This document shows, one piece after another, positions 26,609 through 49,078 of a stretch of 64,000 nt of DNA (within the stretch, counting starts at the first letter, position 1; each line of letters starts with the position of its first letter). The notes beneath the pieces are model-generated. The model was not told the DNA's origin. It was given only the letters and a program-made list of their open reading frames with translations, and did no database searches. The translations under genes were made by a program, and so were the position numbers. Source of the stretch: Trypanosoma brucei (lineage: Eukaryota); contig CP000067.1 in assembly GCA_000002445.1 (NCBI GenBank), positions 1,088,001 to 1,152,000 of the forward strand. The letters run 5' to 3'.

Positions 26609-26640
26609 AACAACAAAGAAAAGAAAGAGGGTATATAATG
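26534..26640 (-). promoter_or_regulatory. polypyrimidine tract / probable trans-splice acceptor region upstream of the FtsH-like gene
   Basis: The plus strand is G/A-rich (gaaggggggagggggagagaacaaaacaacaaagaaaagaaagaggg), so the coding strand is C/T-rich. AG dinucleotides follow on the minus strand before Met at 26533. Confidence 0.5.
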
Positions 26641-30148: not shown

Positions 30149-30149
30149 C

Positions 30150-30270
30150 GCCTAAATTAGCTAATAAGAGGGAAAGAAGTAGTGAGGAAGTATAAAAAAA
30201 CAAATATTCCAAAGGAAATGAAAAAAAATTAATAATAAAATTAATAATAATAATAACTTTTCTCTTCTCT
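30150..30270 (-). promoter_or_regulatory. polypyrimidine-rich region upstream of the Rab-like gene (candidate trans-splicing signal)
   Basis: Plus-strand A/G-rich (gagggaaagaagtagtgaggaagtataaaaaaacaaat...), which is pyrimidine-rich on the coding strand. Confidence 0.4.
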
Positions 30271-32356
30271 CAAAACCTTCTTATTTCTATACAGTCCCCT
30301 CCGACCTTACCCCTTCGTAAAGGTTTCCTTATACCTGTTTCCTCTATGCAGTTTAACCGAAATCACGACCAAATAATATACTTCCATCATCAAACAATGA
30401 TATCAAATACCAACCACAGAGGTACCGTCGCAATGGACAAATGCCTGCACAACTAACACCCCTTTTTTCACCTCTTTGGCACAAAACCGTACGACCGAAG
30501 GGGAGACGCGATGACGAAACTGAACAAACAAACAAACAAAAAAATAAATAAATAAAAAATTAAAAAAAATCATTATGTTTGAACATCTAACAGAGAATTT
30601 CTCATGTCTTCATCACCTTTACCTATGGCATTTTACTTAATTTCTCTTCATTATTAAACTCACGCCTGCGTGCGTACTATTGGGACGCTTAGCACAACGC
30701 CCATCGCTCGCTTTTCTGTCCTTTACTTCCATTTCCTTCGGCAAGAATAAACATGTGAATATATTTGGGGGTCCGTGCATTAATGAGTAACAGTGGAAGA
30801 AAAAAAAATTTAATAACATTTCCGTTTCATCTCATGTTGGTGACGAGTACCATTCAACTTTTTTTTTTTTTTGTAGTCCACACGTCACCCGCGATACGAA
30901 TATGCTCCCGACTTCCACCCCGCTTCTTTTTTTTTTCTTTTTTCTTTTCCTCCCACTCCCATTTTTTGTGCTTTTCCTTTTTATATTTATGTAGTAACGC
31001 CCTCTCAAACTATTAACATAAAAACACGTATTTTTCCAACGCATGATTTGCTCCAATTGGCAAATTAAAAAGACCCAGCGGATTTAATGTTCATTTTTTA
31101 GCCTTTCATCAATGCCATATCGTGTCGCTGAACTTCGCCGTATCCGCGCAGGGCACCGCAGCGCTTTTCCGTCGCGTTATGAACATTTTCCGTGAACCAA
31201 CGCGTAAACCAATTGCAGCAGTTTTGTCTTTCTTTTTTTTTTTTTTGGGGGGGTGCGCTTCATGTTGTCCTTCATAAATCAAAGAGCCATGCATACTCCT
31301 GCCAGAATTGTCACGAGACGTGTCCAGAAAATAGCAGCAAAGGCAAATCAAATGATGTGAAGACTAACCAGAAGGTTAATGTAGCTCATAATTGAAAAGA
31401 AAACTATAAATGAGCTTTGTTACTGTTTGCTTAGAATAAATAATAATAAAAAAAAAGAAAAGCGACACCAAAAGCCAAGGAAAGTAAATGTTAACTGACA
31501 ACCAGTAACTTTGAGGTGTGAGGTCAACCTTTAAAGTGACATTACGTATTAATACTGTTGCTTTTCCCCTCTCTTTTTTTTCTTCCATCTCCATGACAAG
31601 AGAAAGAAAAAAGAAGAAGAAAACGAACAAACAAAAGAGGAACGGAAGAAGCACCAGTGAGTAACATCAACAAAAGATCAAACAAACAAGAAGAAGAAGA
31701 AGAAAAAAAAAGATGCTCTGCATACTTATTTTTGCGTTTATTCTCCTCTTCCGCCTTGAATATGTGTGAGATTGGTTTCAGAACACCAATAACAATTTTT
31801 TCTTTTTTTGTTTTTGAAAAAAAGAAGGAAATTTAAAAGTAGAGAGAGAGAGAGAGTTATAAAAAGCTACCGAAACAGGAAAGAAGATAAGTCAAAATAA
31901 AAGAGGAATGCATGACGGGTCTCTCGGACTGCTGCTCCATTCAAGTATCTGAAACAAAACAGAACAAAACAAAGAACCACGTAAACAGGGGTGAGAGCAA
32001 AAAAGAAAAAAGAAAAAAAGAAAAAGTGATTTTTTTTTAAAAAATTTCAGGAGTCGTCACATTGTGCATGATAGATATCTTTACTTACTTACTTAAATAT
32101 CATAAATCAAATAGAAACGAAGCTCATCCGTGAAGTGAAACAAATGTATGTGAGTGAACCATAATACAAATACAAGGGAGAAAGAAAGGGGTTTGGGAAA
32201 AATACTTGAACAGAAGGAAACCGTAAAGATAAAAAGAAAAAGAAAGAAAAAGAAAAAAAAAGAAAGAAAAATGAAACACCAACAATGAAGATAACACCAC
32301 ACTTTGAAACCCCAACTTCACCCCACCAAATAAAATAAAATAAAATGAACTACAGG

Positions 32357-32391
32357 AGGAGAGAGAGAGAGGTGGTGGTGGTGGTGGTGGG
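32357..32391. repeat. (GA)n followed by (GGT)7
   Basis: Read directly. It produces a spurious poly-Pro ORF on the minus strand. Confidence 0.9.
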
Positions 32392-33234
32392 AGGAACGAC
32401 AAAAAGAAAAAAAGAAAAAAAAAGGATCAACGAAACATCATGAACATTAACGTTAATGATAATGACGGCGTGTGTGTGCGTGTGTGTATGGGGAAACGAA
32501 ACCGGCCTGCTCGGTGCAAAACAAACAACGAGAAGAGAAAAAAGAAAGAAAGAAAAAAAAAAAGGAGCACCAGGAGATGATTGAGCAACTGGGTCCCGAT
32601 GCAGCTTTCACTCTGTGAGATATTTTTTGTGTGTATCCGCATTTTTTATTTTTCAAGGAGCAACAATAACACTAGTAGTAATAATATCGTTATTATTATT
32701 ACAGGGAAAAGTGACAAAAAAACATGGGAAGGAACACACAAAACAAAAAAAAAAAGGAAAAGAAAAAGAAAAAGAAAAACGAAACAACACCGAAAATTTG
32801 CGGATCAGAGTGTCGTGCTTAAAAAAAAAAAACTTCGTTCAACAGCACTGAAGGCGACGAAGGACCATCCAAATTGTATGAACAAGTGCAAATGAATATA
32901 TAAATAAATGTGGATGAATGGATAAATGAATGAAGGGACATGCAGGTATTTTTGGACATGAATATGCACTTCGGCTTCCATTCCATTCTTTTTTTTTTCC
33001 ATCTTCCTCCTCTCTCTCTCTTTTTCGTACTAAGGTCCCATAAACACCAACAGCGGTAAAAGTAGAAAAACAAAAGGTGACTGACTCGCCGAAAAATGTA
33101 AAGAAGGTCTAACTTTCATATGTACTCAAGGGTATCATTAAAAAATTTACCCCCTCCTTTGGTCCTCTTCCTCTTTCTTTCTAACAGTTCCACTAGCTCT
33201 TCCTTTTTTTTCTTTTTGAAACACACATACACGC

Positions 33235-33257
33235 ATATATATATATATATATATATT
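33235..33257. repeat. (AT)n microsatellite
   Basis: Read directly. Confidence 0.9.
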
Positions 33258-33611
33258 CATTTATATATTCCATTAGGGACTACTCCCTTCCTCTTCCTCC
33301 TCCTTCCCACACACTCCACATATGTGAATCACAGTAACATCCGGTTTCATGCATCCACCACCGTGTTGGAGCATGTGATATGAGAAATGATGATAATGCC
33401 GATGTACCATCAATCAAGGAAGACTTTTTTTTTTTGTTGCAGACAGGATGCGTATGTGTGTATTTGTGTCTGGGGAATGTTGAATTCCCTCCTTCGCTCA
33501 TTTGTATGCAACCAAATAATAACTCCCTTTTTGTGCTGTTGTTGTATGACGTTTTACTTGCACCCGTCGTTTTGCCGCGCCTGCCCCAACTTTCTGTCGT
33601 CCACACCTCAG

Positions 33612-33630
33612 TATACATACATACATACAT

Positions 33631-33669
<39 letters not shown>
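33612..33669. repeat. compound microsatellite (CATA)n-(CA)n-(TA)n
   Basis: Read directly: atacatacatacatacacacacacacatatatatatatatatatatatatata. Confidence 0.9.
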
Positions 33670-33673
<4 letters not shown>

Positions 33674-33805
33674 TTTGTAACGGGTGACACAAATGTGAAA
33701 TTATTTTTATTGCCGATCTACACCACTAAAATATTCTTTTCTTCCACTTCTACTCAGATTGTACTAATAATATTGACTAGTACCTAGTACTCTACTGGCG
33801 CATCA

Positions 33806-36073
33806 TTAGCGATCCACGCCAAACGTGCGCACCATATGCTCGGGAGGCAAATAAAACCACATCCCTTCACCAGCGGCTCCGGCTGAGTTTACATCAAAGT
33901 TGGTGAAAAAGGTTTCCACAAATGTGTCATGCCTCAACTCCGGAAGGAACACGGGCCGCAAGTGATGTATGCCACCTTCCTGCAATGCTCGCTCCAGCTC
34001 CGGTGGTGCCTCACCAAACAGCTCCTTTGCACGCCTATGCACCAAGACGTAGACACAACGTGCCACAACCGGTTGTGTATCTTCCATAGCAAAACCAATC
34101 GTCAGGAAAACATTCAGCACATACGAATGGAAACGCATGCAGCGGTGGTAGGCGGTTTCAACACCCGTCGCGGAACCAATGGCGGAGGCGGGTGGACGCC
34201 CTTCGGCACCAGCTTCAGGACCAATGCTAACATCTCCAAAGAGATCCAACACATGCGCCAATGGGTTAAAGACGGGAACAGTATCCTCTTTTGGTGCCTG
34301 CCCGAAGCCAACGACTGACTTGGTTTCTTCTTCGTCATTTTCATTTTCGTTGCCGTTATCGCTATTACTGGGACCACCCTCACGGCTGCCGACGACGTTA
34401 AACCAATCCCCTGGGGCGGCGGGTGTCTCTACCCTCTTAGCGTCTACAGACGCCCCTTTTCTGCAGAGGGGGACCGTTGGGATGACATTGCAACACGCCA
34501 CTGCGTTACGTACGGCCTGAAGCATCTCCTCACAATCCCCTTTGATGCTGTAAAGTAGTGAAAGCAATAAACACGCCAAAAGACGGAGCTGCAACAGACG
34601 CTGCTGGAGCATTTCCATCCCTTCGTCAGAGGCGGTGGAGCTTGCCTTGCGAAAGTCATTTAATGCTTGAGGTGTAACACAAGGTGCAGTGAGTTCATAG
34701 AGTCGCCGTAGTGCACCGACCGCATCGTGGGACCTTTCCCTTGTGACTACAAACACTTGCGCGTAACCCATAGCTGTGAGGACCAGCGTGCGCGCACGGT
34801 CCACCAGTTGCTGTAAGTTTGCATACTGCGGCAGCTGCGGTGTGGGTCCAAACTCATTGTGTTTTGGTGCAAAACCTAACAATGACGAAAACTTCCCCTT
34901 GCAACCGGCGAATTCCACGTCGTACGCGCCATGACCGAAGTTGCTAACAGGTGAAGGGCAAGGAAGAAAATACACGGGGCTATCGAATAAATAACTCCCC
35001 GAGGAGGGCCACTTTGCATCATTTACGGGAGGAACGTCCACACAGCCAGGCGATGGCTGCTGCTGCGATGCAATAGGCGGAGACTCCGCCCCGAGAACAG
35101 AGTTGCATGGCGAGCCCTGATCTATTAATGAGGACGTTGGGGCAGTATACTCTACCCAGTTGTGTGTCTCAGTAATAATAGGAGGCAAAGACGCCCGCTG
35201 GTCTTTGCCATCGCCACCGTTGTTGTTGTTGTGATGATTCTTATGATGATGGTCATGATTGTGGTTATGGTGATTATCATTGTTGTTATGCTTGCTAGAC
35301 CATCCGCTGCTGCCGTTGCCGTTGTTACTGTGTGAAGAATTGTTCATACGGGCTTGCGCGGCACCCATATTCCCTTCCTTACGTTTGAGGTTGTAATAAC
35401 TGTCAACCGCCTCCTTAAGGGTGCGGTTTGCAAAGTTTCCTGATCCAAATATGCAAGTTACATTTCCCTCAGGGCTGGCATCATGAAAAACGCGATCCAC
35501 TATGGGCTGCTTTGCTGCATTGCACTTCAGTCTCAGTGGAGGTTTTCCTGGCCCATTGGGTAGCTCCAACCCGCTTTGGCGCATCATCGCCGCGGCACCG
35601 CTGCGGTCGGCGAACTCAACGAAACCGTATATCCAATTTTGGGTATTGGTGGAGTTTCCACAGATGCGCACTCTCAGATATTCTCCGCACTGTGCGCACA
35701 ATGCGGCCAGTTCGCTCTGAAGCATGCCCGTGGGAAGAAAGCGGAGATGTACAGTGCGGGCAATGGCATCTGTTTCTTCAGCAGACTGGGCCGCAATCCG
35801 TTGTCGTTCCTCCTTCGGGAGTGCTTTGAACTGCTGATGTAAACGCTTCTGAGGGTCAGACCCAGCGTCAGGCCCGCAGTATGTGAAGCAGTTGCGCGTC
35901 ACATCTGCCGGTGGAGGAGCAGAATCCACACGGAACGATCGACCCGGTGGGCTGGTTATGTGATCAGCGAATACGTGTCCATTTCTCCCACCTGTTGATG
36001 CAGTGTCCACTACGGCGTGAGCGTTAGCGCCTTTCTCCAACGCCGTTGCGGCATGCCGCATCCGCCTTCCCAT
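33806..36073 (-). CDS. RNA-binding protein with N-terminal RRM-like domain and His/Asn-rich tract
   Basis: The segment VHLRFLP...IYGFVEFADRSGAAAMM looks like RRM RNP motifs. A tract NNDNHHNHNHDHHHKNHHNNNN follows. Confidence 0.65.
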   Translation of the reverse strand: MGRRMRHAATALEKGANAHAVVDTASTGGRNGHVFADHITSPPGRSFRVDSAPPPADVTRNCFTYCGPDAGSDPQKRLHQQFKALPKEERQRIAAQSAEETDAIARTVHLRFLPTGMLQSELAALCAQCGEYLRVRICGNSTNTQNWIYGFVEFADRSGAAAMMRQSGLELPNGPGKPPLRLKCNAAKQPIVDRVFHDASPEGNVTCIFGSGNFANRTLKEAVDSYYNLKRKEGNMGAAQARMNNSSHSNNGNGSSGWSSKHNNNDNHHNHNHDHHHKNHHNNNNGGDGKDQRASLPPIITETHNWVEYTAPTSSLIDQGSPCNSVLGAESPPIASQQQPSPGCVDVPPVNDAKWPSSGSYLFDSPVYFLPCPSPVSNFGHGAYDVEFAGCKGKFSSLLGFAPKHNEFGPTPQLPQYANLQQLVDRARTLVLTAMGYAQVFVVTRERSHDAVGALRRLYELTAPCVTPQALNDFRKASSTASDEGMEMLQQRLLQLRLLACLLLSLLYSIKGDCEEMLQAVRNAVACCNVIPTVPLCRKGASVDAKRVETPAAPGDWFNVVGSREGGPSNSDNGNENENDEEETKSVVGFGQAPKEDTVPVFNPLAHVLDLFGDVSIGPEAGAEGRPPASAIGSATGVETAYHRCMRFHSYVLNVFLTIGFAMEDTQPVVARCVYVLVHRRAKELFGEAPPELERALQEGGIHHLRPVFLPELRHDTFVETFFTNFDVNSAGAAGEGMWFYLPPEHMVRTFGVDR

Positions 36074-37478
36074 CTTTTGTCTTATTGGACGGAAACCTAT
36101 GTCGTTGTTACTGTTTTTTTCTTTTACCCTTGCCTGCCCACACTAGAACTTCTAATACTACCGGTATTTTCCCTTTCCTTTTGTTTCCTTTCTCGCTTGC
36201 AGTACTCCCCTTTGTCTGAAGAGCCCTCTTCTGTTGTTCAATGTAAGAATATCTAAAACAGAAAACCTCTAACAACAAAGTACGAAGGAATCCTTCCCTC
36301 TTTCTGTGTTTTCCGTCCTCTTTCCCCTTCTTTCGCTCGCTTACTACCCTACACTCTGCGTCCTCTACCTCTCTTCTACTTTACAATATATCAACCGGCT
36401 ACCTACCAATCCTAATATGCCACTTCCCCTGCTACCCTAGTACCTACTCAGTGTTGCTAATAATGAAGTAACTAATAATAATATGTAAATATCCCCCTAA
36501 CAACTACAACCCTCTAACAAACCAACACAACCGTCAGGCAGTTCCTTGACACCGTTAGCTCTAGGTACACACTCTACTTTCCACTGACAAAGAGTGAGAA
36601 ACTAGTGCCAACGCTAAAAGAGATGAAAAAGAAACTGCCTTGACTGTGCGTCTCCGCTGCGTACAGCTACACACAAATGTAATCAACCAAAAGAAAAAAA
36701 TGCGCTTCTCTACCTGCTAGTAAACAAGGTCCTAACAACCTACGCCGCCCACTATCACCTTAACTCACCCTAACCCTACCCGGCAATGCCCCTACAAAAA
36801 AAAAGTTCCCCTGATAGTTTCCGTTTCTCGAGAACAATATGACGTAAGAATGAACAAACAAACCTTAATTCACAACCCTTAATGCCTATTGTTTTTGCAC
36901 CACCAAGAAATGGGGGACATAAGTAGGGTAAAAAAGACAAAGACATCAAAAGTTAAGAAAAAACAACAACAACAACAGAATGGAAAATCAGAAGGTAAAG
37001 CAAAACAAACAACGGCCCTAAAAGTTGCATGACCACAAACGAACAAAAAGAAAAGACACAATTAAAACCTGCACGTATTCCTTCTGGAGCTCAATGGCAC
37101 ATGTAATCACCCCGGCAAGCAACAAACCGCGCAGAGGATTTGGCACGATACCAAGAAATGGTACAGGTACAATAAAATTAGATTTAGGGCTCACACACTT
37201 TAGTAAGCACAAACAAGCACCACGTCTTGACTACAGTTCGCGAACAATTTCGTCAAGTACGTACAAACCAACAATCACCATAGTTCTATCTTCCTCCCGC
37301 ATATTTACATTTGATGAATTTTTCTACGAAGTTTCGCCACCGTAATATGCAGAACGCCTAACTCATTCACACATATTGGAGACGTACATAATCAATGGTC
37401 TTTCTGTGCGCACATATGCGTTGAGGTTATGCTCTACACAACAAGGGTTGGCACAAAGGTCTCCCTATGTGGATAAAA

Positions 37479-38471
37479 TCATTGTCCTGCAGCGGCAGAC
37501 TTCGATCTCACACAAACACGCTGGGGAGGAATGGAGGGGCCAGTTTCTGTTAATGTGTCATCTTTCTGCTGTCGACTATGCCGAGTCTCAGTTCGAGATG
37601 CCACCCCAACATTACCTTTCGCTACCTTCGAGAAACCCGTAAATGCACCGAAGGCTGATGAGCCCCGCAACCTTGGATATGGCATTCCACTTAGCCGACG
37701 CGAGGCACCCCACAAAGATGTGGTAGTGTTACATTTCGTGGAGTGAGTAGCATGTGACCGGCAGTTTTTGATATCTTTTAACACCTCATGGGATGCCTTT
37801 ACGAAGCCACTGAAGGACGGCTTTTGCCGCACAACCTCACCATCCATCTTACTGCGCTCACTCGGGTTCTCTGTGAGTGCACCAACAGCTGTACGTTCCT
37901 CCAATTGTACTGTATTGGGAAGTGGCGGAGGCTCAACGGGGTACACATGTGTTGCCGTCTGCTGCACATCGTCACCTTTGATCTTACATTCAGGAGACAC
38001 ACCCTTCAGGTTGGTTTCCACAGCTTGTTTTCCATTGCTTACAGCCGGTTTCACTTTTCGGTCAGTGTGTTTCCTGCATACTTGTGCTGTGCGTTCCGTG
38101 GCAGACGGAAGTACATCCTCACACACATGACCTTTGCTACAGCTCACATCACTCTTTTGTTCGCACGGAGGTGTAGGTGGTTCACTGCAAAGGACTCGCG
38201 TCTGACTTCTTTCCCGCCCTTTACAGTAGTATTCCTCATGGGCCGCTAACCTTGCCATCTCTACTTCCATACCACAGCACGAGCATTCTACCAATTGTTG
38301 CCCACAGCGGCTGATGTGTTCACTACAGCCAAAACGCCTACAATAGGGGCACTTGCGAAGATTTTTGGGCAGTAAATCAGAACTTTTCCGCTTCGTAGGG
38401 TCACGCACAAGAGCACCATTGTACTTCCAGGGTGCACCACTCGTTACAGTTGTCTTGCTCTCCGTTTCCAT
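37479..38471 (-). CDS. TRAF-like zinc-finger protein (330 aa), repeat copy 1
   Basis: 1-kb ORF inside each cassette. Cys/His cluster CPYCRRFGCSEHISRCGQQLVECSCCGMEVEMARLAAHEEYYC fits a TRAF-type C2HC/C3HC pattern. The rest is Ser/Thr/Pro/Lys-rich. Confidence 0.65.
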   Translation of the reverse strand: METESKTTVTSGAPWKYNGALVRDPTKRKSSDLLPKNLRKCPYCRRFGCSEHISRCGQQLVECSCCGMEVEMARLAAHEEYYCKGRERSQTRVLCSEPPTPPCEQKSDVSCSKGHVCEDVLPSATERTAQVCRKHTDRKVKPAVSNGKQAVETNLKGVSPECKIKGDDVQQTATHVYPVEPPPLPNTVQLEERTAVGALTENPSERSKMDGEVVRQKPSFSGFVKASHEVLKDIKNCRSHATHSTKCNTTTSLWGASRRLSGMPYPRLRGSSAFGAFTGFSKVAKGNVGVASRTETRHSRQQKDDTLTETGPSIPPQRVCVRSKSAAAGQ

Positions 38472-38936
38472 GACCTACACCTAAAACAAGACAGCATAAA
38501 TAATTACAGTATTTGGGAAAGGAAGGAGAGCCATGTGTGAACCAGTCGGAAAATGTATCAACGGCAACATGACCTGCACAGAGTTACTGAAGCCACGGTG
38601 TGAGCAACAGCTAGCATTTAAGGAGGGGGAAATATAACACCTATGGGAATAAGTAACGCTTACACAATGTGAAAGGAGGGTTGCAGGAGACTACAGCCAG
38701 TGCAAATGGACACAAGAGTCCTTGCTGCCGCTTTTCATAACACAATCCAACACACAATGCAATGACTCGAGAAACCCCAACACTTCACCAGCACCTGCGG
38801 AAGCTACGGGCGTGTGTGCATGTGTGTGCACAATTTGGGGAACTCGGGCCTGACACAGACAGGATGGCAGGTAATGATAGAGTGGGAGGATTACCGCATT
38901 CCAGCAACTCTACAATGGAATAAACTTGATTCGATA

Positions 38937-38958
38937 CCTTGCATCAACAACTCAAACT
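38937..38958. repeat. 22-bp direct repeat taccttgcatcaacaactcaaa (left copy). The right copy is at 39760-39781. The pair recurs in unit 2 (43491-43512 and 44314-44335), and a single copy is present in unit 3 (48037-48058)
   Basis: Exact 22-nt match read directly. The segment between the two copies is missing from unit 3. Confidence 0.85.
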
Positions 38959-39828
38959 CTCTAAATTTTTGTGAGACGCAGATGGGAAGTGAAGGAACGT
39001 GTATTCGGTGATGATGTTAAAACTAGATAAGATTTTGTGATGCACATGTAGTTATGTTAAAAAAGAAAAAAAATATCGAGGGCTTCCTGGTGGCAAAAGT
39101 TTACCAACCCCCCATCCCCCTAAAAAAAAAAGATTTCACCGTGCAACAGATGTGAAACTGCAGTAAATATTGAGAACTTCCCGTCATTCACACTGCGCAC
39201 TATGACACCGGTTAGCTTATCTTGCTATCAGGGTCTGAAACTTTATGTGGGAGGTGGCTAACATTTAGAGCTTTCTTCACGATATTCAGAAATGACACTG
39301 ACAGAAAGCTGGTGATTACGAAAGGAGCAACGTATATTACTAGCGGTGTTCTTCAGGGGAATGTATGATCCGTGAGTATACGCCCCTGCATGTGTAAATG
39401 GATTGATTCATTTTGCGTGCTAACTCTTTTCTACTTTTCCAGAAAGTGACTTAGGTTGTGGCACCACAAAGCCGTTCCGGCGTATTAAAATTATGATGGA
39501 AAAGAAAGGAGAGGGAAATAGCCTGACTAACATTTGGGGCACCTTATCCATGGAAGGGATCCAAACGTTGTAAAAAAACAAGTCACTGCCACTGACTCAC
39601 ATTGGTATTTGCCGGATAACCTCACCGTGCTCCACGGCTGTACGTACGGTAACAAGACAAAGATTAGCACATGAAAACAAAGAAAAATTTAAGTTCTTTT
39701 AAAAAATACCCATGTTAGGAATATAACACTCTCACGACAAGAAAAAAGAAAATCTGCGGTACCTTGCATCAACAACTCAAAATCAATTTAAAAAAATATA
39801 TGTGTTCACGTTCGAATTCGTGTTCGCC

Positions 39829-40983
39829 CTACAAACAACTCATTTCCCGGAGAGGTCCCTGGCTGCCCGTTAGCGAGCGGTGCGAGATGTTCTTCTCATT
39901 GTTGAACCGCCGCCTCAACTCGTTGTAGTCACTCTCATTTACATGGTGTACCATAATGGAGCTTTTTGTCACGGCTCCCAACGTTGTACCGGCGTGCACA
40001 TCGTGAAACGAGCACTTAGGCTCGTGAACGTAGGTTATATTCGTATGATACATGGCCCTCCGCAATGTAATCCCTACCATTGCGTCTTCAACCATGACAC
40101 AGAGAGACTGGAACTCTTCGTCACGTATTGCTGTGTAGGGGACGTGGATTATTGTTCGAAGGGGCTTATACGAGACAAAACGTTCCGCGACGTCACGTCC
40201 TAGAGTATAGCACGCGCCATAAGCATAATTAAATCGGAAACCTTGCACGGTGTGCACGTCTATCGTACCCCAGTATAGCCCACGGCGAGGTAGGTTGCGT
40301 AAGTCTGCTAGATACTGAGGAACGCGTAGGAACATATCGTCATCTGCCTTCGCAATATACGGGGCATACGGAAATAAGCACACTGACATGTCAAACCACA
40401 AGAATGTCTTGCGGCTCATGCCAATCTCCGCATCAATGCCCCACTTCCCACCTTGACCCACACGCTTCCTACCTGACGGCCGGCCCTCGTTCATTGGCAA
40501 CGTTAAGATGTCACTCCATTGAGTAGCTTCCTCCACCAGTGCCTTGGTATAAGTGTAGCCATTTTCGGGATGTCGCGCAAGGATGTACAGCGGCAGCATT
40601 TCACCAGAGAAACCGTTCGCACGTACTGCAACGCCGGCGTATGTCCAGCATGCTGCCCGTTGCAGGTCGCGGCGGCGCCGTCTCACGTCCAGGTCTATGG
40701 AGGGGATGCCGATTACCACCAAGTACCGTCGCTCCTCCCATGCGCTAACGACGGGAGCTGGGACGTAAGTTAGCGACTGTTTCACCCACAGAGGGCGTTT
40801 CCAGTAGGTGCAGCGTTCGGTGATTTTTTTTCTTTCCCGGCGTCTAACTCGTTCCACATCCTCTAGGAGCGTCCTGAAAGTAACAATCGCCGCGGACACT
40901 GCCAAGAGAATAATGATAAGCCAATACCTCCGCTTGTGTGCTGTACATCTTCTAATCCGATTTCCCCGAAGCGCGGGGGCCAT
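39829..40983 (-). CDS. UDP-Gal/UDP-GlcNAc-dependent glycosyltransferase (GT31-like beta-1,3-glycosyltransferase family), repeat copy 1
   Basis: Type-II signal anchor (RRYWLIIILLAVSAAIVTF), DXD motif (IAKADDDMFL) and YWGTID motif, 384 aa. Typical of the kinetoplastid GT family. Confidence 0.85.
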   Translation of the reverse strand: MAPALRGNRIRRCTAHKRRYWLIIILLAVSAAIVTFRTLLEDVERVRRRERKKITERCTYWKRPLWVKQSLTYVPAPVVSAWEERRYLVVIGIPSIDLDVRRRRRDLQRAACWTYAGVAVRANGFSGEMLPLYILARHPENGYTYTKALVEEATQWSDILTLPMNEGRPSGRKRVGQGGKWGIDAEIGMSRKTFLWFDMSVCLFPYAPYIAKADDDMFLRVPQYLADLRNLPRRGLYWGTIDVHTVQGFRFNYAYGACYTLGRDVAERFVSYKPLRTIIHVPYTAIRDEEFQSLCVMVEDAMVGITLRRAMYHTNITYVHEPKCSFHDVHAGTTLGAVTKSSIMVHHVNESDYNELRRRFNNEKNISHRSLTGSQGPLREMSCL

Positions 40984-41220
40984 AACTACACATCAAAGGC
41001 GTTCATATTTGAGAATCCAGTGGAGTTGAGGGGGCGTAGAGACCCTACTGTCGGTGATAAGTTGACGTAAAAAGTACAGCCGCTGTGGAAGCAAACATCG
41101 TTACCCAACGAACGTACACAAAAACGGAAACGAAACGACCAAAACTGCTGGACCAACGTGTCAGAAAACAATAATCATGACATGAAAGTAAGCCCAACTC
41201 ACGGCCATGCAAGTATTCAC

Positions 41221-41290
41221 ACATACGAAAACAACAAAAATAACGTCGCCTGAAAAAAAAAACAAAACCAAACAATAGTAAGAAGTTACT
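41221..41290 (-). promoter_or_regulatory. polypyrimidine (T-rich on coding strand) tract upstream of glycosyltransferase copy 1. An identical tract sits at 45775-45840 upstream of copy 2
   Basis: The plus strand reads acgaaaacaacaaaaataacgtcgcctgaaaaaaaaaacaaaaccaaacaatag. Confidence 0.4.
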
Positions 41291-42032
41291 TCAAGATATC
41301 AACCTGAATCCGCTGCGCATGTAAGCGCTGCTAGAGAGCAAAACGTAATAAAGAAAAAAAAAACGTGCCACAAAATAGCAAAAGGTGAATTTATTACTCG
41401 CTAGATATGGGGGGAAAAAGCGAGCGACTGTCGTAGCCATTCTTTTAATTCAGCCCTGGTACACGTCCATTTACTTAACAGGGGAGAGGCATCGCCTCAT
41501 CGTCGAAAATACCCACAAAACGGAGGTTTAAGAACTCTAGATGGATAAAAGCTCGATCCACAGTGGCTGTGTGGTAAGTGGCATGGCACGCTATTCAACC
41601 CAATAATAAGGTAAAAATTAACAAACAAAAGGTTCTGAGCAAAGCATACACTGCATACAACCACCCCGGCAAGCAACAAACCGCGCAGAGGATTTGGCAC
41701 GATACCAAGAAATGGTACAGGTACAATAAAATTAGATTTAGGGCTCACACACTTTAGTAAGCACAAACAAGCACCACGTCTTGACTACAGTTCGCGAACA
41801 ATTTCGTCAAGTACGTACAAACCAACAATCACCATAGTTCTATCTTCCTCCCGCATATTTACATTTGATGAATTTTTCTACGAAGTTTCGCCACCGTAAT
41901 ATGCAGAACGCCTAACTCATTCACACATATTGGAGACGTACATAATTAATGGTCCTTCTGTGCGCACATATGCGTTGAGGTTATGCTCTACACAACAAGG
42001 GTTGGCACAAAGGTCTCCCCACGTGGATAAAA

Positions 42033-43025
42033 TCATTGTCCTGCAGCGGCAGACTTCGATCTCACACAAACACGCTGGGGAGGAATGGAGGGGCCAGTTT
42101 CTGTTAATGTGTCATCTTTCTGCTGTCGACTATGCCGAGTCTCAGTTCGAGATGCCACCCCAACATTACCTTTCGCTACCTTCGAGAAACCCGTAAATGC
42201 ACCGAAGGCTGATGAGCCCCGCAACCTTGGATATGGCATTCCACTTAGCCGACGCGAGGCACCCCACAAAGATGTGGTAGTGTTACATTTCGTGGAGTGA
42301 GTAGCATGTGACCGGCAGTTTTTGATATCTTTTAACACCTCATGGGATGCCTTTACGAAGCCACTGAAGGACGGCTTTTGCCGCACAACCTCACCATCCA
42401 TCTTACTGCGCTCACTCGGGTTCTCTGTGAGTGCACCAACAGCTGTACGTTCCTCCAATTGTACTGTATTGGGAAGTGGCGGAGGCTCAACGGGGTACAC
42501 ATGTGTTGCCGTCTGCTGCACATCGTCACCTTTGATCTTACATTCAGGAGACACACCCTTCAGGTTGGTTTCCACAGCTTGTTTTCCATTGCTTACAGCC
42601 GGTTTCACTTTTCGGTCAGTGTGTTTCCTGCATACTTGTGCTGTGCGTTCCGTGGCAGACGGAAGTACATCCTCACACACATGACCTTTGCTACAGCTCA
42701 CATCACTCTTTTGTTCGCACGGAGGTGTAGGTGGTTCACTGCAAAGGACTCGCGTCTGACTTCTTTCCCGCCCTTTACAGTAGTATTCCTCATGGGCCGC
42801 TAACCTTGCCATCTCTACTTCCATACCACAGCACGAGCATTCTACCAATTGTTGCCCACAGCGGCTGATGTGTTCACTACAGCCAAAACGCCTACAATAG
42901 GGGCACTTGCGAAGATTTTTGGGCAGTAAATCAGAACTTTTCCGCTTCGTAGGGTCACGCACAAGAGCACCATTGTACTTCCAGGGTGCACCACTCGTTA
43001 CAGTTGTCTTGCTCTCCGTTTCCAT
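42033..43025 (-). CDS. TRAF-like zinc-finger protein (330 aa), repeat copy 2
   Basis: Identical to copy 1. Confidence 0.65.
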   Translation of the reverse strand: METESKTTVTSGAPWKYNGALVRDPTKRKSSDLLPKNLRKCPYCRRFGCSEHISRCGQQLVECSCCGMEVEMARLAAHEEYYCKGRERSQTRVLCSEPPTPPCEQKSDVSCSKGHVCEDVLPSATERTAQVCRKHTDRKVKPAVSNGKQAVETNLKGVSPECKIKGDDVQQTATHVYPVEPPPLPNTVQLEERTAVGALTENPSERSKMDGEVVRQKPSFSGFVKASHEVLKDIKNCRSHATHSTKCNTTTSLWGASRRLSGMPYPRLRGSSAFGAFTGFSKVAKGNVGVASRTETRHSRQQKDDTLTETGPSIPPQRVCVRSKSAAAGQ

Positions 43026-44382
43026 GACCTACACCTAAAACAAGACAGCATAAATAATTACAGTATTTGGGAAAGGAAGGAGAGCCATGTGTGAACCAGT
43101 CGGAAAATGTATCAACGGCAACATGACCTGCACAGAGTTACTGAAGCCACGGTGTGAGCAACAGCTAGCATTTAAGGAGGGGGAAATATAACACCTATGG
43201 GAATAAGTAACGCTTACACAATGTGAAAGGAGGGTTGCAGGAGACTACAGCCAGTGCAAATGGACACAAGAGTCCTTGCTGCCGCTTTTCATAACACAAT
43301 CCAACACACAATGCAATGACTCGAGAAACCCCAACACTTCACCAGCACCTGCGGAAGCTACGGGCGTGTGTGCATGTGTGTGCACAATTTGGGGAACTCG
43401 GGCCTGACACAGACAGGATGGCAGGTAATGATAGAGTGGGAGGATTACCGCATTCCAGCAACTCTACAATGGAATAAACTTGATTCGATACCTTGCATCA
43501 ACAACTCAAACTCTCTAAATTTTTGTGAGACGCAGATGGGAAGTGAAGGAACGTGTATTCGGTGATGATGTTAAAACTAGATAAGATTTTGTGATGCACA
43601 TGTAGTTATGTTAAAAAAGAAAAAAAATATCGAGGGCTTCCTGGTGGCAAAAGTTTACCAACCCCCCATCCCCCTAAAAAAAAAAGATTTCACCGTGCAA
43701 CAGATGTGAAACTGCAGTAAATATTGAGAACTTCCCGTCATTCACACTGCGCACTATGACACCGGTTAGCTTATCTTGCTATCAGGGTCTGAAACTTTAT
43801 GTGGGAGGTGGCTAACATTTAGAGCTTTCTTCACGATATTCAGAAATGACACTGACAGAAAGCTGGTGATTACGAAAGGAGCAACGTATATTACTAGCGG
43901 TGTTCTTCAGGGGAATGTATGATCCGTGAGTATACGCCCCTGCATGTGTAAATGGATTGATTCATTTTGCGTGCTAACTCTTTTCTACTTTTCCAGAAAG
44001 TGACTTAGGTTGTGGCACCACAAAGCCGTTCCGGCGTATTAAAATTATGATGGAAAAGAAAGGAGAGGGAAATAGCCTGACTAACATTTGGGGCACCTTA
44101 TCCATGGAAGGGATCCAAACGTTGTAAAAAAACAAGTCACTGCCACTGACTCACATTGGTATTTGCCGGATAACCTCACCGTGCTCCACGGCTGTACGTA
44201 CGGTAACAAGACAAAGATTAGCACATGAAAACAAAGAAAAATTTAAGTTCTTTTAAAAAATACCCATGTTAGGAATATAACACTCTCACGACAAGAAAAA
44301 AGAAAATCTGCGGTACCTTGCATCAACAACTCAAAATCAATTTAAAAAAATATATGTGTTCACGTTCGAATTCGTGTTCGCC

Positions 44383-45537
44383 CTACAAACAACTCATTTC
44401 CCGGAGAGGTCCCTGGCTGCCCGTTAGCGAGCGGTGCGAGATGTTCTTCTCATTGTTGAACCGCCGCCTCAACTCGTTGTAGTCACTCTCATTTACATGG
44501 TGTACCATAATGGAGCTTTTTGTCACGGCTCCCAACGTTGTACCGGCGTGCACATCGTGAAACGAGCACTTAGGCTCGTGAACGTAGGTTATATTCGTAT
44601 GATACATGGCCCTCCGCAATGTAATCCCTACCATTGCGTCTTCAACCATGACACAGAGAGACTGGAACTCTTCGTCACGTATTGCTGTGTAGGGGACGTG
44701 GATTATTGTTCGAAGGGGCTTATACGAGACAAAACGTTCCGCGACGTCACGTCCTAGAGTATAGCACGCGCCATAAGCATAATTAAATCGGAAACCTTGC
44801 ACGGTGTGCACGTCTATCGTACCCCAGTATAGCCCACGGCGAGGTAGGTTGCGTAAGTCTGCTAGATACTGAGGAACGCGTAGGAACATATCGTCATCTG
44901 CCTTCGCAATATACGGGGCATACGGAAATAAGCACACTGACATGTCAAACCACAAGAATGTCTTGCGGCTCATGCCAATCTCCGCATCAATGCCCCACTT
45001 CCCACCTTGACCCACACGCTTCCTACCTGACGGCCGGCCCTCGTTCATTGGCAACGTTAAGATGTCACTCCATTGAGTAGCTTCCTCCACCAGTGCCTTG
45101 GTATAAGTGTAGCCATTTTCGGGATGTCGCGCAAGGATGTACAGCGGCAGCATTTCACCAGAGAAACCGTTCGCACGTACTGCAACGCCGGCGTATGTCC
45201 AGCATGCTGCCCGTTGCAGGTCGCGGCGGCGCCGTCTCACGTCCAGGTCTATGGAGGGGATGCCGATTACCACCAAGTACCGTCGCTCCTCCCATGCGCT
45301 AACGACGGGAGCTGGGACGTAAGTTAGCGACTGTTTCACCCACAGAGGGCGTTTCCAGTAGGTGCAGCGTTCGGTGATTTTTTTTCTTTCCCGGCGTCTA
45401 ACTCGTTCCACATCCTCTAGGAGCGTCCTGAAAGTAACAATCGCCGCGGACACTGCCAAGAGAATAATGATAAGCCAATACCTCCGCTTGTGTGCTGTAC
45501 ATCTTCCAATCCGATTTCCCCGAAGCGCGGGGGCCAT
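44383..45537 (-). CDS. UDP-Gal/UDP-GlcNAc-dependent glycosyltransferase, repeat copy 2
   Basis: Differs from copy 1 by one residue (R11G). Confidence 0.85.
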   Translation of the reverse strand: MAPALRGNRIGRCTAHKRRYWLIIILLAVSAAIVTFRTLLEDVERVRRRERKKITERCTYWKRPLWVKQSLTYVPAPVVSAWEERRYLVVIGIPSIDLDVRRRRRDLQRAACWTYAGVAVRANGFSGEMLPLYILARHPENGYTYTKALVEEATQWSDILTLPMNEGRPSGRKRVGQGGKWGIDAEIGMSRKTFLWFDMSVCLFPYAPYIAKADDDMFLRVPQYLADLRNLPRRGLYWGTIDVHTVQGFRFNYAYGACYTLGRDVAERFVSYKPLRTIIHVPYTAIRDEEFQSLCVMVEDAMVGITLRRAMYHTNITYVHEPKCSFHDVHAGTTLGAVTKSSIMVHHVNESDYNELRRRFNNEKNISHRSLTGSQGPLREMSCL

Positions 45538-46212
45538 AACTACACATCAAAGGCGTTCATATTTGAGAATCCAGTGGAGTTGAGGGGGCGTAGAGACCCT
45601 ACTGTCGGTGATAAGTTGACGTAAAAAGTACAGCCGCTGTGGAAGCAAACATCGTTACCCAACGAACGTACACAAAAACGGAAACGAAACGACCAAAACT
45701 GCTGGACCAACGTGTCAGAAAACAATAATCATGACATGAAAGTAAGCCCAACTCACGGCCATGCAAGTATTCACACATACGAAAACAACAAAAATAACGT
45801 CGCCTGAAAAAAAAAAAAACCAAACAATAGTAAGAAGTTACTTCAAGATATCAACCTGAATCCGCTGCGCATGTAAGCGCTGCTAGAGAGCAAAACGTAA
45901 TAAAGAAAAAAAAACGTGCCACAAAATAGCAAAAGGTGAATTTATTACTCGCTAGATATGGGGGGAAAAAGCGAGCGACTGTCGTAGCCATTCTTTTAAT
46001 TCAGCCCTGGTACACGTCCATTTACTTAACAGGGGAGAGGCATCGCCTCATCGTCGAAAATACCCACAAAACGGAGGTTTAAGAACTCTAGATGGATAAA
46101 AGCTCGATCCACAGTGGCTGTGTGGTAAGTGGCATGACACGCTATTCAACCCAATAATAAGGTAAAAATTAACAAACAAAAGGTTCTGAGCAAAGCATAC
46201 ACTGCATACAAC

Positions 46213-49078
46213 CACCCCGGCAAGCAACAAACCGCGCAGAGGATTTGGCACGATACCAAGAAATGGTACAGGTACAATAAAATTAGATTTAGGGCTCACA
46301 CACTTTAGTAAGCACAAACAAGCACCACGTCTTGACTACAGTTCGCGAACAATTTCGTCAAGTACGTACAAACCAACAATCACCATAGTTCTATCTTCCT
46401 CCCGCATATTTACATTTGATGAATTTTTCTACGAAGTTTCGCCACCGTAATATGCAGAACGCCTAACTCATTCACACATATTGGAGACGTACATAATCAA
46501 TGGTCTTTCTGTGCGCACATATGCGTTGAGGTTATGCTCTACACAACAAGGGTTGGCACAAAGGTCTCCCCATGTGGATAAAATCATTGTCCTGCAGCGG
46601 CAGACTTCGATCTCACACAAACACGCTGGGGAGGAATGGAGGGGCCAGTTTCTGTTAATGTGTCATCTTTCTGCTGTCGACTATGCCGAGTCTCAGTTCG
46701 AGATGCCACCCCAACATTACCTTTCGCTACCTTCGAGAAACCCGTAAATGCACCGAAGGCTGATGAGCCCCGCAACCTTGGATATGGCATTCCACTTAGC
46801 CGACGCGAGGCACCCCACAAAGATGTGGTAGTGTTACATTTCGTGGAGTGAGTAGCATGTGACCGGCAGTTTTTGATATCTCTTAACACCTCATGGGATG
46901 CCTTTACGAAGCCACTGAAGGACGGCTTTTGCCGCACAACCTCACCATCCATCTTACTGCGCTCACTCGGGTTCTCTGTGAGTGCACCAACAGCTGTACG
47001 TTCCTCCAATTGTACTGTATTGGGAAGTGGCGGAGGCTCAACGGGGTACACATGTGTTGCCGTCTGCTGCACATCGTCACCTTTGATCTTACATTCAGGA
47101 GACACACCCTTCAGGTTGGTTTCCACAGCTTGTTTTCCATTGCTTACAGCCGGTTTCACTTTTCGGTCAGTGTGTTTCCTGCATACTTGTGCTGTGCGTT
47201 CCGTGGCAGACGGAAGTACATCCTCACACACATGACCTTTGCTACAGCTCACATCACTCTTTTGTTCGCACGGAGGTGTAGGTGGTTCACTGCAAAGGAC
47301 TCGCGTCTGACTTCTTTCCCGCCCTTTACAGTAGTATTCCTCATGGGCCGCTAACCTTGCCATCTCTACTTCCATACCACAGCACGAGCATTCTACCAAT
47401 TGTTGCCCACAGCGGCTGATGTGTTCACTACAGCCAAAACGCCTACAATAGGGGCACTTGCGAAGATTTTTGGGCAGTAAATCAGAACTTTTCCGCTTCG
47501 TAGGGTCACGCACAAGAGCACCATTGTACTTCCAGGGTGCACCACTCGTTACAGTTGTCTTGCTCTCCGTTTCCATGACCTACACCTAAAACAAGACAGC
47601 ATAAATAATTACAGTATTTGGGAAAGGAAGGAGAGCCATGTGTGAACCAGTCGGAAAATGTATCAACGGCAACATGACCTGCACAGAGTTACTGAAGCCA
47701 CGGTGTGAGCAACAGCTAGCATTTAAGGAGGGGGAAATATAACACCTATGGGAATAAGTAACGCTTACACAATGTGAAAGGAGGGTTGCAGGAGACTACA
47801 GCCAGTGCAAATGGACACAAGAGTCCTTGCTGCCGCTTTTCATAACACAATCCAACACACAATGCAATGACTCGAGAAACCCCAACACTTCACCAGCACC
47901 TGCGGAAGCTACAGGCGTGTGTGCATGTGTGTGCACAATTTGGGGAACTCGGGCCTGACACAGACAGGATGGCAGGTAATGATAGAGTGGGAGGATTACC
48001 GCATTCCAGCAACTCTACAATGGAATAAACTTGATTCGATACCTTGCATCAACAACTCAAAATCAATTTAAAAAAATATATGTGTTCACGTTCGAATTCG
48101 TGTTCGCCCTACAAACAACTCATTTCCCGGAGAGGTCCCTGGCTGCCCGTTAGCGAGCGGTGCGAGGTGTTCTTCTCATTGTTGAACCGCCGCCTCAACT
48201 CGTTGTAGTCACTCTCATTTACATGGTGTACCATAATGGAGCTTTTTGTCACGGCTCCCAACGTTGTACCGGCGTGCACATCGTGAAACGAGCACTTAGG
48301 CTCGTGAACGTAGGTTATATTCGTATGATACATGGCCCTCCGCAATGTAATCCCTACCATTGCGTCTTCAACCATGACACAGAGAGACTGGAACTCTTCG
48401 TCACGTATTGCTGTGTAGGGGACGTGGATTATTGTTCGAAGGGGCTTATACGAGACAAAACGTTCCGCGACGTCACGTCCTAGAGTATAGCACGCGCCAT
48501 AAGCATAATTAAATCGGAAACCTTGCACGCTGAGCACGTCTATCGTACCCCAGTATAGCCCACGGCGAGGTAGGTTGCGTAAGTCTGCTAGATACTGAGG
48601 AACGCGTAGGAACATATCGTCATCTGCCTTCGCAATATACGGGGCATACGGAAATAAGCACACTGACATGTCAAACCACAAGAATGTCTTGCGGCTCATG
48701 CCAATCTCCGCATCAATGCCCCACTTCCCACCTTGACCCACACGCTTCCTACCTGACGGCCGGCCCTCGTTCATTGGCAACGTTAAGATGTCACTCCATT
48801 GAGTAGCTTCCTCCACCAGTGCCTTGGTATAAGTGTAGCCATTTTCGGGATGTCGCGCAAGGATGTACAGCGGCAGCATTTCACCAGAGAAACCGTTCGC
48901 ACGTACTGCAACGCCGGCGTATGTCCAGCATGCTGCCCGTTGCAGGTCGCGGCGGCGCCGTCTCACGTCCAGGTCTATGGAGGGGATGCCGATTACCACC
49001 AAGTACCGTCGCTCCTCCCATGCGCTAACGACGGGAGCTGGGACGTAAGTTAGCGACTGTTTCACCCACAGAGGGTGC
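46213..49078. repeat. repeat unit 3 (truncated, carries internal 823-bp deletion)
   Basis: See array. The glycosyltransferase start-to-start spacing is 3726 bp instead of 4554 bp. Confidence 0.9.
46584..47576 (-). CDS. TRAF-like zinc-finger protein (330 aa), repeat copy 3
   Basis: One conservative K to R difference from copies 1 and 2. Confidence 0.65.
   Translation of the reverse strand: METESKTTVTSGAPWKYNGALVRDPTKRKSSDLLPKNLRKCPYCRRFGCSEHISRCGQQLVECSCCGMEVEMARLAAHEEYYCKGRERSQTRVLCSEPPTPPCEQKSDVSCSKGHVCEDVLPSATERTAQVCRKHTDRKVKPAVSNGKQAVETNLKGVSPECKIKGDDVQQTATHVYPVEPPPLPNTVQLEERTAVGALTENPSERSKMDGEVVRQKPSFSGFVKASHEVLRDIKNCRSHATHSTKCNTTTSLWGASRRLSGMPYPRLRGSSAFGAFTGFSKVAKGNVGVASRTETRHSRQQKDDTLTETGPSIPPQRVCVRSKSAAAGQ

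What the first reader, a model, noticed from the sequence alone, without database searches (positions are those of the whole stretch)
38937..39781. 823-bp segment bounded by exact 22-bp direct repeats is present in units 1 and 2 but cleanly absent from unit 3
Units 1 and 2 contain taccttgcatcaacaactcaaa twice, 823 bp apart (38937/39760 and 43491/44314). Unit 3 has a single copy at 48037-48058, with the left flank of the first repeat and the right flank of the second. Two readings are possible. One is a deletion by recombination between short direct repeats in unit 3. The other is that the 823-bp segment is an insertion carrying a long target-site-like duplication, with unit 3 preserving the empty site. 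The segment lies between the glycosyltransferase stop and the zinc-finger start. That is a 3'UTR and trans-splice region, so unit 3 mRNAs should differ in UTR content and possibly in regulation.
Basis: seen in the sequence. Interest (0 to 1): 0.5.

Follow-up and report, generated by a model that had tools for sequence, protein, structure and literature searches.

The report
Intergenic indel between trypanosome tandem-repeat units
Two of three tandem gene-pair units in this Trypanosoma brucei locus carry 803 bp of extra non-coding DNA flanked by an exact 22-bp duplication; this is a real but fairly ordinary difference between repeat units, and it probably changes only how the neighbouring mRNAs are processed.

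Summary
The 22-mer lies at 38935/39760 and 43489/44314, 825 bp apart rather than 823. Unit 3 has one copy at 48040-48061, joining the left flank of copy 1 to the right flank of copy 2.

The window matches T. brucei TREU927 chromosome 4. It holds a minus-strand array of glycosyltransferase (GT) plus 330-aa protein gene pairs. The short junction is not an assembly error: two other assemblies have it, an independent read-set contig spans it, and four more contigs break exactly at the repeat.

The 803-bp segment (S) has no retroposon hallmark and no RNA-family, tRNA or minicircle signal. No second copy was found in the DNA available here. Its composition is that of ordinary intergenic DNA.

A 22-bp exact repeat cannot arise by chance, so some duplicating event made the long form. 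I favour an insertion-like origin with unit 1 of transcription (unit 3 of the window) keeping the empty site (about 0.5). Precise loss by microhomology-mediated repair is a serious rival (about 0.3). Sequence alone cannot separate them.

S adds six polypyrimidine tracts between the GT stop and the next gene, so mRNA 3'-end processing probably differs between units. Interest is low.

The parts
38935..38956 (+). 22-bp repeat R, left copy, unit 1
   Evidence: Exact match; alignment.
38957..39759 (-). Segment S, 803 bp of unique non-coding DNA, unit 1. The transcribed strand is minus.
   Evidence: Identical to the unit-2 copy and found nowhere else in the window. 40.5% GC with the strand skew of an intergenic region. 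Six polypyrimidine tracts on the minus strand.
39760..39781 (+). 22-bp repeat R, right copy, unit 1
43489..43510 (+). R, left copy, unit 2
43511..44313 (-). Segment S, unit 2
   Evidence: 803/803 identical to the unit-1 S.
44314..44335 (+). R, right copy, unit 2
48040..48061 (+). Single R in unit 3 (the short, unoccupied form of the intergenic region)
   Evidence: The same junction is in DAL972, IVM-t1 and a Logan contig.
37105..41658 (-). Array unit 1 (4554 bp): 330-aa gene 37479-38471, long intergenic region 38472-39828, GT gene 39829-40983 (384 aa), and the inter-unit region 40796-41658, which includes the unit-type-specific GT N-terminus
   Evidence: Self-BLAST; ORFs; Pfam Galactosyl_T; N-terminus comparison.
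41659..46209 (-). Array unit 2 (4551 bp): 330-aa gene 42033-43025, long intergenic region, GT gene 44383-45537
46210..49075 (-). Array unit 3, the first unit in the direction of transcription: 330-aa gene 46584-47576, short 532-bp intergenic region 47577-48108, and the body of the GT gene 48109-49266 (385 aa). Its N-terminus beyond 49075 is unrelated to that of units 1 and 2.
39498..39518 (-). Longest polypyrimidine tract inside S (TTTCCCTCTCCTTTCTTTTCC), a candidate extra trans-splicing/polyadenylation signal
   Evidence: Length range of such tracts from Kolev 2010 (PMC2936537).
39739..39752 (-). Polypyrimidine tract starting 77 nt after the GT stop, 8 nt into S

Best explanation
This is a genuine structural difference between units of an old tandem array of GT and 330-aa protein gene pairs on T. 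brucei chromosome 4. The units evolve in concert.

The long intergenic form (units 1 and 2) equals the short form (unit 3) plus 803 bp of unique non-coding DNA (S) and a second copy of a 22-bp site. An exact 22-bp repeat cannot be chance, so the long form was made by an event that duplicated the site. I infer an insertion-like event: capture or templated copying of S at a staggered or microhomology-primed break. It was not ingi-type retroposition.

On this reading the unit next to the unique upstream gene keeps the unoccupied site. S then spread to, or was duplicated with, a second unit.

Predicted effect (not shown): S puts six extra polypyrimidine tracts between the GT stop codon and the next gene. 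GT mRNAs from units 1 and 2 should therefore have different poly(A) sites and 3'UTRs from the unit-3 GT. Extra spliced-leader acceptor sites may also give long 5'UTR variants of the 330-aa gene or a non-coding transcript.
For: **The dimorphism is real.**
- Exact repeats and a clean junction.
- The short junction is also in T. b. gambiense DAL972 and T. equiperdum IVM-t1.
- An independent Logan contig (ERR034315) reads short junction, 330-aa gene, inter-unit region, then the unit-1/2-type GT.
- Four Logan contigs (ERR7929157/59/61/62) end on the last base of R. That is the expected de Bruijn branch point if both forms follow the same flank.
- The long form with an identical S is in T. equiperdum OVI.

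**The repeat is not chance.** It is the only such repeat in 64 kb, and no homology extends beyond it apart from 2 of 3 bases on each side.

**Hints that the short form is primary.**
- Any model needs an event that makes the duplication. 'Never occupied' then needs fewer steps than 'occupied everywhere, then lost'.
- The five outgroup GT-to-next-gene spacers are all shorter than 1357 bp. T. congolense has 315, 355 and 881 bp. The chromosome-8 paralogous locus has about 455 and 520 bp. The short form is 532 bp.

**The array is old and evolves in concert.**
- T. congolense also has three GT plus related-gene units after the same upstream gene, with a distinct first N-terminus.
- SNPs in the GT body are specific to strains, not to unit types.

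**Processing signals.**, with parameters from PMC2936537.
Against: - No known T. brucei mechanism makes a 22-bp target duplication. Ingi-clade elements make 12 bp (PMC3820030).
- No donor or second copy of S was found, but the rest of the genome could not be searched.
- S looks like native intergenic DNA in the native orientation. That fits equally well if S has always been here.
- Precise loss between 22-bp repeats is a demonstrated T. brucei repair outcome (PMC3045614) and gives exactly the same short sequence.
- The intergenic regions of the outgroups do not align with this one, so the polarity rests on spacer lengths and parsimony only.
- The single-unit structure in DAL972 and IVM-t1 may be assembly collapse (PMC6395869).
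Confidence: 0.5

Rival explanations
1. Deletion in unit 3. All units once had the long form. A double-strand break inside S in the first unit was repaired by microhomology-mediated end joining or single-strand annealing between the two 22-bp copies. This removed S and one copy precisely.
For: - The product has the exact structure expected: one repeat copy, the left flank of copy 1 and the right flank of copy 2.
- T. brucei lacks NHEJ and repairs breaks by MMEJ using 5-20-bp microhomologies. An 18-bp perfect microhomology about 950 bp on either side of a break was used experimentally (PMC3045614).
- S has native intergenic composition and orientation.
- Concerted evolution could have spread S to all units before the loss.
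Against: - It still needs an earlier event to create the 22-bp duplication, so it requires more steps.
- The short form sits next to the first-unit GT in TREU927, DAL972, IVM-t1 and ERR034315, so the loss would have to be old and stably kept.
- Outgroup spacers are short.
Confidence: 0.3
2. S is a relic. Units 1 and 2 once had their own unrelated intergenic region, as the T. congolense units do. Two separate one-sided gene conversions from the unit-3 type, using homologous recombination in the gene and MMEJ in the spacer, overwrote its two ends. Their end points overlapped by 22 bp in donor coordinates, which duplicated R around the surviving middle part, S.
For: - In T. congolense the homology between units stops about 50 bp before the GT stop, and the spacers and downstream genes differ between units.
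- In T. brucei the homogenised blocks end exactly at S on both sides.
- One-sided MMEJ gene conversion has been shown in T. brucei (PMC3045614).
- S resembles native intergenic DNA, lacks mobile-element features and has 2-bp microhomologies one base beyond each repeat edge.
Against: It needs two independent events whose ends happen to overlap by only 22 bp. A short clean duplication is a natural outcome of insertion, but only one of many possible outcomes here. There is no direct evidence for the ancestral spacer.
Confidence: 0.15
3. S is an ingi-clade retroposon remnant (RIME, SIDER or DIRE-like) with a target-site duplication.
For: Direct repeats flank a sub-kilobase non-coding segment, and the + strand is A-rich near its right end.
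Against: - No match to the 77-nt Pr77 hallmark above shuffled controls.
- No poly(dA) run next to the repeat. The end reads ...AAGAAAAAAGAAAATCTGCGG|R.
- The duplication is 22 bp, not the conserved 12 bp (PMC3820030).
- No RT-like or other protein similarity in six frames.
- No other copy in about 210 kb of Trypanozoon and T. congolense DNA held here.
Confidence: 0.03
4. Assembly artefact: unit 3 really contains S and the reference collapsed it.
For: Tandem arrays are often misassembled. The OVI contig shows the first-unit GT followed by the long form.
Against: - The short junction is independently present in DAL972, IVM-t1 and a Logan contig that continues into the next unit.
- Four further contigs break exactly at the repeat.
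- The OVI contig carries unit-1/2-type SNPs in the GT body and a run of 26 N inside S, as expected for a collapsed short-read consensus.
Confidence: 0.02

Closest known systems
MMEJ / micro-SSA deletions in T. brucei (Glover, Jun and Horn 2011, PMC3045614)
   Same: One copy of a short direct repeat remains in the short allele, and the sequence between the copies is absent. The repeat length (22 bp) and the distance (803 bp) lie within or near the experimentally seen range: 5-20 bp microhomologies, and an 18-bp one about 950 bp on either side of a break.
   Different: No break or repair event was observed here. The direction of change is unknown. The 22-bp repeat is itself too long to have pre-existed by chance.
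Target-site duplications of ingi/RIME/SIDER retroposons (Bringaud et al. 2011, PMC3820030)
   Same: A non-coding segment of under 1 kb bounded by exact direct repeats, with an apparent empty site in a paralogous unit.
   Different: The duplication is 22 bp, not 12 bp. There is no 76-79-bp 5' signature and no terminal poly(dA). No other copies were detected.
Concerted evolution of trypanosome tandem gene arrays, and the chromosome 4/8 glycosyltransferase arrays (Jackson 2007, PMC2212663)
   Same: Units within a strain are more alike than positional counterparts between strains. A paralogous GT array exists on the chromosome-8 duplicon.
   Different: The papers read here do not describe an indel that persists between units while both of its flanks are homogenised.

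Membership tests
ingi-clade retroposon (RIME / SIDER / DIRE) | 76-79-bp 5' signature (Pr77 hallmark) | tested here: not met
   The Smith-Waterman score of L1Tc Pr77 (sequence from PMC1874656) against S plus flanks was 20. Shuffles gave a mean of 17.6 and a maximum of 27. No BLAST hit in S stood out above background. Caveat: no ingi or RIME element was available in the window or loci as a positive control.
ingi-clade retroposon (RIME / SIDER / DIRE) | Poly(dA) stretch at the 3' end, directly next to the downstream target duplication | tested here: not met
   On the + strand S ends ...AAGAAAAAAGAAAATCTGCGG before R. On the - strand it ends ...CACAAAAATTTAGAGAG.
ingi-clade retroposon (RIME / SIDER / DIRE) | 12-bp target-site duplication | tested here: not met
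   The duplication is 22 bp exact. The 12-bp rule is from PMC3820030.
ingi-clade retroposon (RIME / SIDER / DIRE) | Dispersed copies in the genome | tested here: inconclusive
   There is no second copy in the 64-kb window, the chromosome-8 paralogous locus or the T. congolense locus. A concatenated six-frame translation gave no protein hits. The rest of the T. brucei genome could not be searched by DNA.
DNA transposon / MITE | Terminal inverted repeats and a short (2-10 bp) target duplication | tested here: not met
   The inverted repeats found are internal, A/T-rich and 73-87% complementary. None lies at the ends of S. The duplication is 22 bp.
MMEJ / SSA deletion product | The repeat is present twice around the segment in the long allele and once in the short allele, with matching outer flanks | tested here: met
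MMEJ / SSA deletion product | The long allele is ancestral to the short allele | tested here: inconclusive
   Outgroup spacers do not align. Their lengths favour the short form. The strain distribution fits either direction.
Nuclear insertion of a kDNA minicircle | CSB-1 (GGGCGTGCA) and CSB-3 (GGGGTTGGTGTA) within about 100 nt of each other, in an A/T-rich circle of about 1 kb | tested here: not met
   S has only a 10/12 match to CSB-3, a quality of match found 14 times in the window. It has no CSB-1 with one mismatch or fewer. Motifs are from PMC6868439.
Structured RNA gene (snoRNA, tRNA and others) | Match to a curated RNA family or a tRNA model | tested here: not met
   No Rfam match at E <= 1 in 36000-50000. 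No tRNA or tmRNA.
Tandem array under concerted evolution | Paralogous units within a genome share strain-specific alleles that differ from those of their positional counterparts in other strains | tested here: met
   At least six sites in the GT body and several in the 330-aa gene region separate the TREU927 units from DAL-type units whatever the unit type. No unit-type-specific SNP is shared across strains.

The most novel reading that the evidence does not exclude
S records an uncharacterised way of adding DNA to the T. brucei genome that duplicates about 22 bp of target. It could be an unrecognised non-ingi mobile element, or templated capture of a DNA or cDNA fragment at a staggered break in an organism that lacks NHEJ. 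The paralogous unit would then preserve the exact empty site.
Probability: 0.12. Interest if true: 0.55.

Novelty: new member of a known kind. Interest (0 to 1): 0.2.

Why it matters
The finding has three modest uses.

- It is a natural experiment for mRNA processing. Near-identical GT genes differ by 803 bp in their 3' processing region, and the first copy also has a different N-terminus. Copy-specific poly(A) and spliced-leader mapping could therefore show how an intergenic insertion re-routes coupled trans-splicing and polyadenylation.
- It shows an indel persisting between units while both of its flanks are homogenised. That bears on the lengths of gene-conversion tracts in trypanosome arrays.
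- It flags this array as probably collapsed in the DAL972, IVM-t1 and OVI assemblies.

None of these changes current understanding.

Tried and rejected
1. **Elevated divergence of S.** S looked only 96.8% identical between TREU927 and OVI. This was a run of 26 N in the OVI scaffold. The other 777 positions are identical.
2. **The 863-bp inter-unit region as a second foreign insert.** This region (40796-41658) carries a different GT N-terminus. I rejected the idea because T. congolense has the same architecture, three units with a distinct first N-terminus. The N-termini themselves are not detectably homologous between the species, so I do not claim orthology of the N-termini.
3. **DAL972 and IVM-t1 as true single-unit haplotypes that give polarity.** Not relied on. 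IVM-t1 is mostly a short-read, reference-guided assembly, and a contig with the DAL-type protein shows at least two units.
4. **OVI 'first GT followed by the long form' as evidence that unit 1 of transcription can carry S.** Rejected as probable collapse, because the contig has unit-1/2-type SNPs in the GT body.
5. **Origin of S from the chromosome-8 paralogous array.** No similarity.
6. **kDNA minicircle origin**, prompted by a GGGGTTGGTAAA motif. Rejected.
7. **Retroposon hallmark search.** Negative, with no positive control available.
8. **Rfam and tRNA scans.** Nothing found.
9. **Protein-level searches.** An exact look-up of ten small ORFs in and around S and a homology search with concatenated six-frame stretches of S both found nothing.
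10. **Alignment of S and the short spacer to T. congolense and chromosome-8 spacers.** No signal except a 19-bp match.

Full report
**Observation.** The 22-mer TACCTTGCATCAACAACTCAAA occurs five times, at 38935, 39760, 43489, 44314 and 48040, all on the + strand. Shuffles of the window give none. An alignment of the five sites shows that the single unit-3 copy has exactly the left flank of copy 1 and the right flank of copy 2. A self-BLAST gives the same picture: 37105-38956 matches 46210-48061, and 39757-40795 matches 48037-49075. In the whole window this is the only exact direct repeat of at least 16 bp within 3 kb that is not low-complexity sequence. Beyond the 22 bp only 2 of 3 bases match on each side.

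**Context.** All long ORFs in the window lie on the minus strand, so this is one polycistronic unit. The array spans 37105-49075 and has three units: unit 1 at 37105-41658, unit 2 at 41659-46209 and a shorter unit 3 at 46210-49075. Each unit holds a 330-aa protein gene and a Galactosyl_T-family glycosyltransferase (GT) gene. Exact protein look-ups identify the GTs as AAZ11016, AAZ11018 and AAZ11020 of T. brucei brucei TREU927, on a 1.59-Mb chromosome. Together with Jackson 2007 (PMC2212663), I infer that this is one of the chromosome-4 GT arrays with a paralogous array on chromosome 8. The paper lists more than one chromosome-4/8 GT pair, so I did not assign gene IDs.

In the direction of transcription the order is: 616-aa gene, GT (385 aa, unit 3), short 532-bp spacer, 330-aa gene, inter-unit region, GT (384 aa), long 1357-bp spacer, 330-aa gene, and the same again. 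The 'zinc-finger' label has only sub-threshold support.

**Is the dimorphism real?** Yes.
- T. b. gambiense DAL972 and T. equiperdum IVM-t1 both have the first-unit GT followed by a 533-bp spacer with a single R.
- A Logan contig from ERR034315 starts 8 nt before R on the short junction. It runs through the 330-aa gene and the inter-unit region into the unit-1/2-type GT.
- Four Logan contigs from ERR7929157, 59, 61 and 62 carry the unit-1/2-type GT and end on the last base of R. That is where a de Bruijn graph must branch if the same flank plus R is followed by two different sequences. The start of the ERR034315 contig, one k-mer past that node, fits the same reading.
- The long form is in T. 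equiperdum OVI. Its S is identical to the TREU927 S outside a run of 26 N.

The OVI contig places S after the first-unit GT. It also carries unit-1/2-type SNPs in the GT body, so it is probably a collapsed consensus. The single-unit structures of DAL972 and IVM-t1 may also be collapsed. IVM-t1 is largely a short-read, reference-guided assembly (PMC6395869).

**History of the array.** Units 1 and 2 also differ from unit 3 in the first 63-64 GT codons and the 675 bp upstream of them (40796-41658), which are unrelated in sequence. This is not a second insertion. The T. congolense orthologous contig has three GT-plus-related-gene units directly after the orthologue of the 616-aa gene. Its first GT has an N-terminus unlike the other two. 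In T. congolense, homology between units is confined to the GT body. In T. brucei it extends through the spacer and the 330-aa gene. SNPs in the GT body separate strains rather than unit types, which is the mark of concerted evolution. Units 1 and 2 are identical over 3.3 kb including S. Unit 3 differs from them at five sites, two of them within 130 bp of R on either side. S thus persists as a difference between units although both of its flanks are homogenised.

**What is S?** It is 803 bp and 40.5% GC. Its pyrimidine excess and T-skew on the transcribed strand are typical of spacers in this window. The tests for other identities were all negative:
- No copy elsewhere in the window, the chromosome-8 paralogous locus or the T. 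congolense locus.
- No Rfam or tRNA hit.
- No terminal inverted repeats.
- No Pr77 retroposon signature, although no positive control was available.
- No poly(dA) next to R.
- No protein similarity in any frame.
- A minicircle-like motif turned out to be background.

Ingi-clade elements make 12-bp duplications (PMC3820030), not 22-bp ones. S is therefore not a recognisable mobile element.

**Mechanism.** A 22-bp exact repeat 825 bp apart has a chance probability of the order of 1e-7, by my estimate, so some event duplicated the site. I weigh three histories.

1. *Insertion-like addition of S with a 22-bp duplication, unit 3 keeping the empty site (about 0.5).* This needs the fewest steps. All five outgroup spacers are shorter than 1357 bp, and most are close to 532 bp: T. 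congolense has 315, 355 and 881 bp, and chromosome 8 has about 455 and 520 bp. The weakness is that no mechanism or donor is known.
2. *Precise loss from unit 3 by MMEJ or SSA between the repeats (about 0.3).* Glover et al. showed that T. brucei repairs breaks this way. In their experiments an 18-bp perfect microhomology about 950 bp on each side of the break was used (PMC3045614). This history still needs an earlier duplicating event and the spread of S to all units.
3. *S as a relic of an older unit-specific spacer, left between two one-sided HR/MMEJ conversion tracts that overlapped by 22 bp (about 0.15).* This fits the T. congolense pattern and the native look of S, but needs a coincidence of end points.

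The junction sequence cannot separate history 1 from history 2, because precise loss regenerates the empty site.

**Likely consequence (inferred).** In the short spacer the first polypyrimidine tract starts 324 nt after the GT stop. The strongest tract, CTCTCCTTCCTTTCCC, has its next AG 9 nt before the ATG of the 330-aa gene. S adds six tracts. One starts 77 nt after the GT stop, and one is 21 nt long. Genome-wide, such tracts have a median length of 18 nt, and poly(A) sites lie a median of 142 nt upstream of the coupled splice site (PMC2936537). From these figures I predict a 3'UTR of about 380 nt for the unit-3 GT. For the GTs of units 1 and 2 the 3'UTR should be either about 1.2 kb or S-internal poly(A) sites should be used, possibly with extra spliced transcripts. 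The splice site of the 330-aa gene is probably shared by all units.

**Verdict.** This is a real, reproducible indel between repeat units, of an ordinary kind. It is not a retroposon and not an artefact. The direction of change is unresolved, with a modest preference for the short form as the original state.

Noticed in passing
window 40796-41658 and 45350-46209, compared with 49076-49266: The GT genes of units 1 and 2 (384 aa, MAPALRG...) and of unit 3 (385 aa, MCRQFNS...) have unrelated first 63-64 codons and upstream regions, joined to near-identical bodies. The three-unit T. congolense array has the same layout of a distinct first N-terminus.
   Followed up: yes
window 37105-49075, compared with L002, L003, L005-L008 and L012: Concerted evolution. 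SNPs in the GT body and the 330-aa gene region are shared by all units of a strain and differ between strains. Units 1 and 2 are identical over 3.3 kb but differ at 5 sites in the last 370 bp of the unit and at 5 positions in the inter-unit region.
   Followed up: partly
L002 (DAL972), L003/L010 (IVM-t1), L001 (OVI): The public assemblies of these strains show one unit, or a contig that breaks in the array. Independent read-set contigs carrying the DAL-type protein show at least two units. The array is therefore probably collapsed in those references. The OVI contig also has 26 N inside S.
   Followed up: partly
L009 (IVM-t1 CM010679.1, presumably the chromosome-8 duplicon): The paralogous locus has three tandem GT copies (one apparently interrupted), a GT remnant with a remnant of the related gene upstream, and a 636-aa relative of the 330-aa protein. 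Only the Cys/His-rich first 80 residues or so of the 330-aa protein are conserved with this paralogue and with T. congolense.
   Followed up: partly
window 26534-28456 and 30149-33805: Unusually long, A/T-rich spacers (36-41% GC) with (AT)n runs near 33235 and 33645 and A-rich repeats around 32000-32400. They lie between the RRM-protein gene and the next gene downstream.
   Followed up: no
window 38932-38959 and 39757-39784: The repeat extends to 28 bp at 26/28 identity (CGA/CGG before it, CTC/ATC after it). This means 2-bp matches lie one base beyond each edge, which could be junction microhomology or chance.
   Followed up: partly
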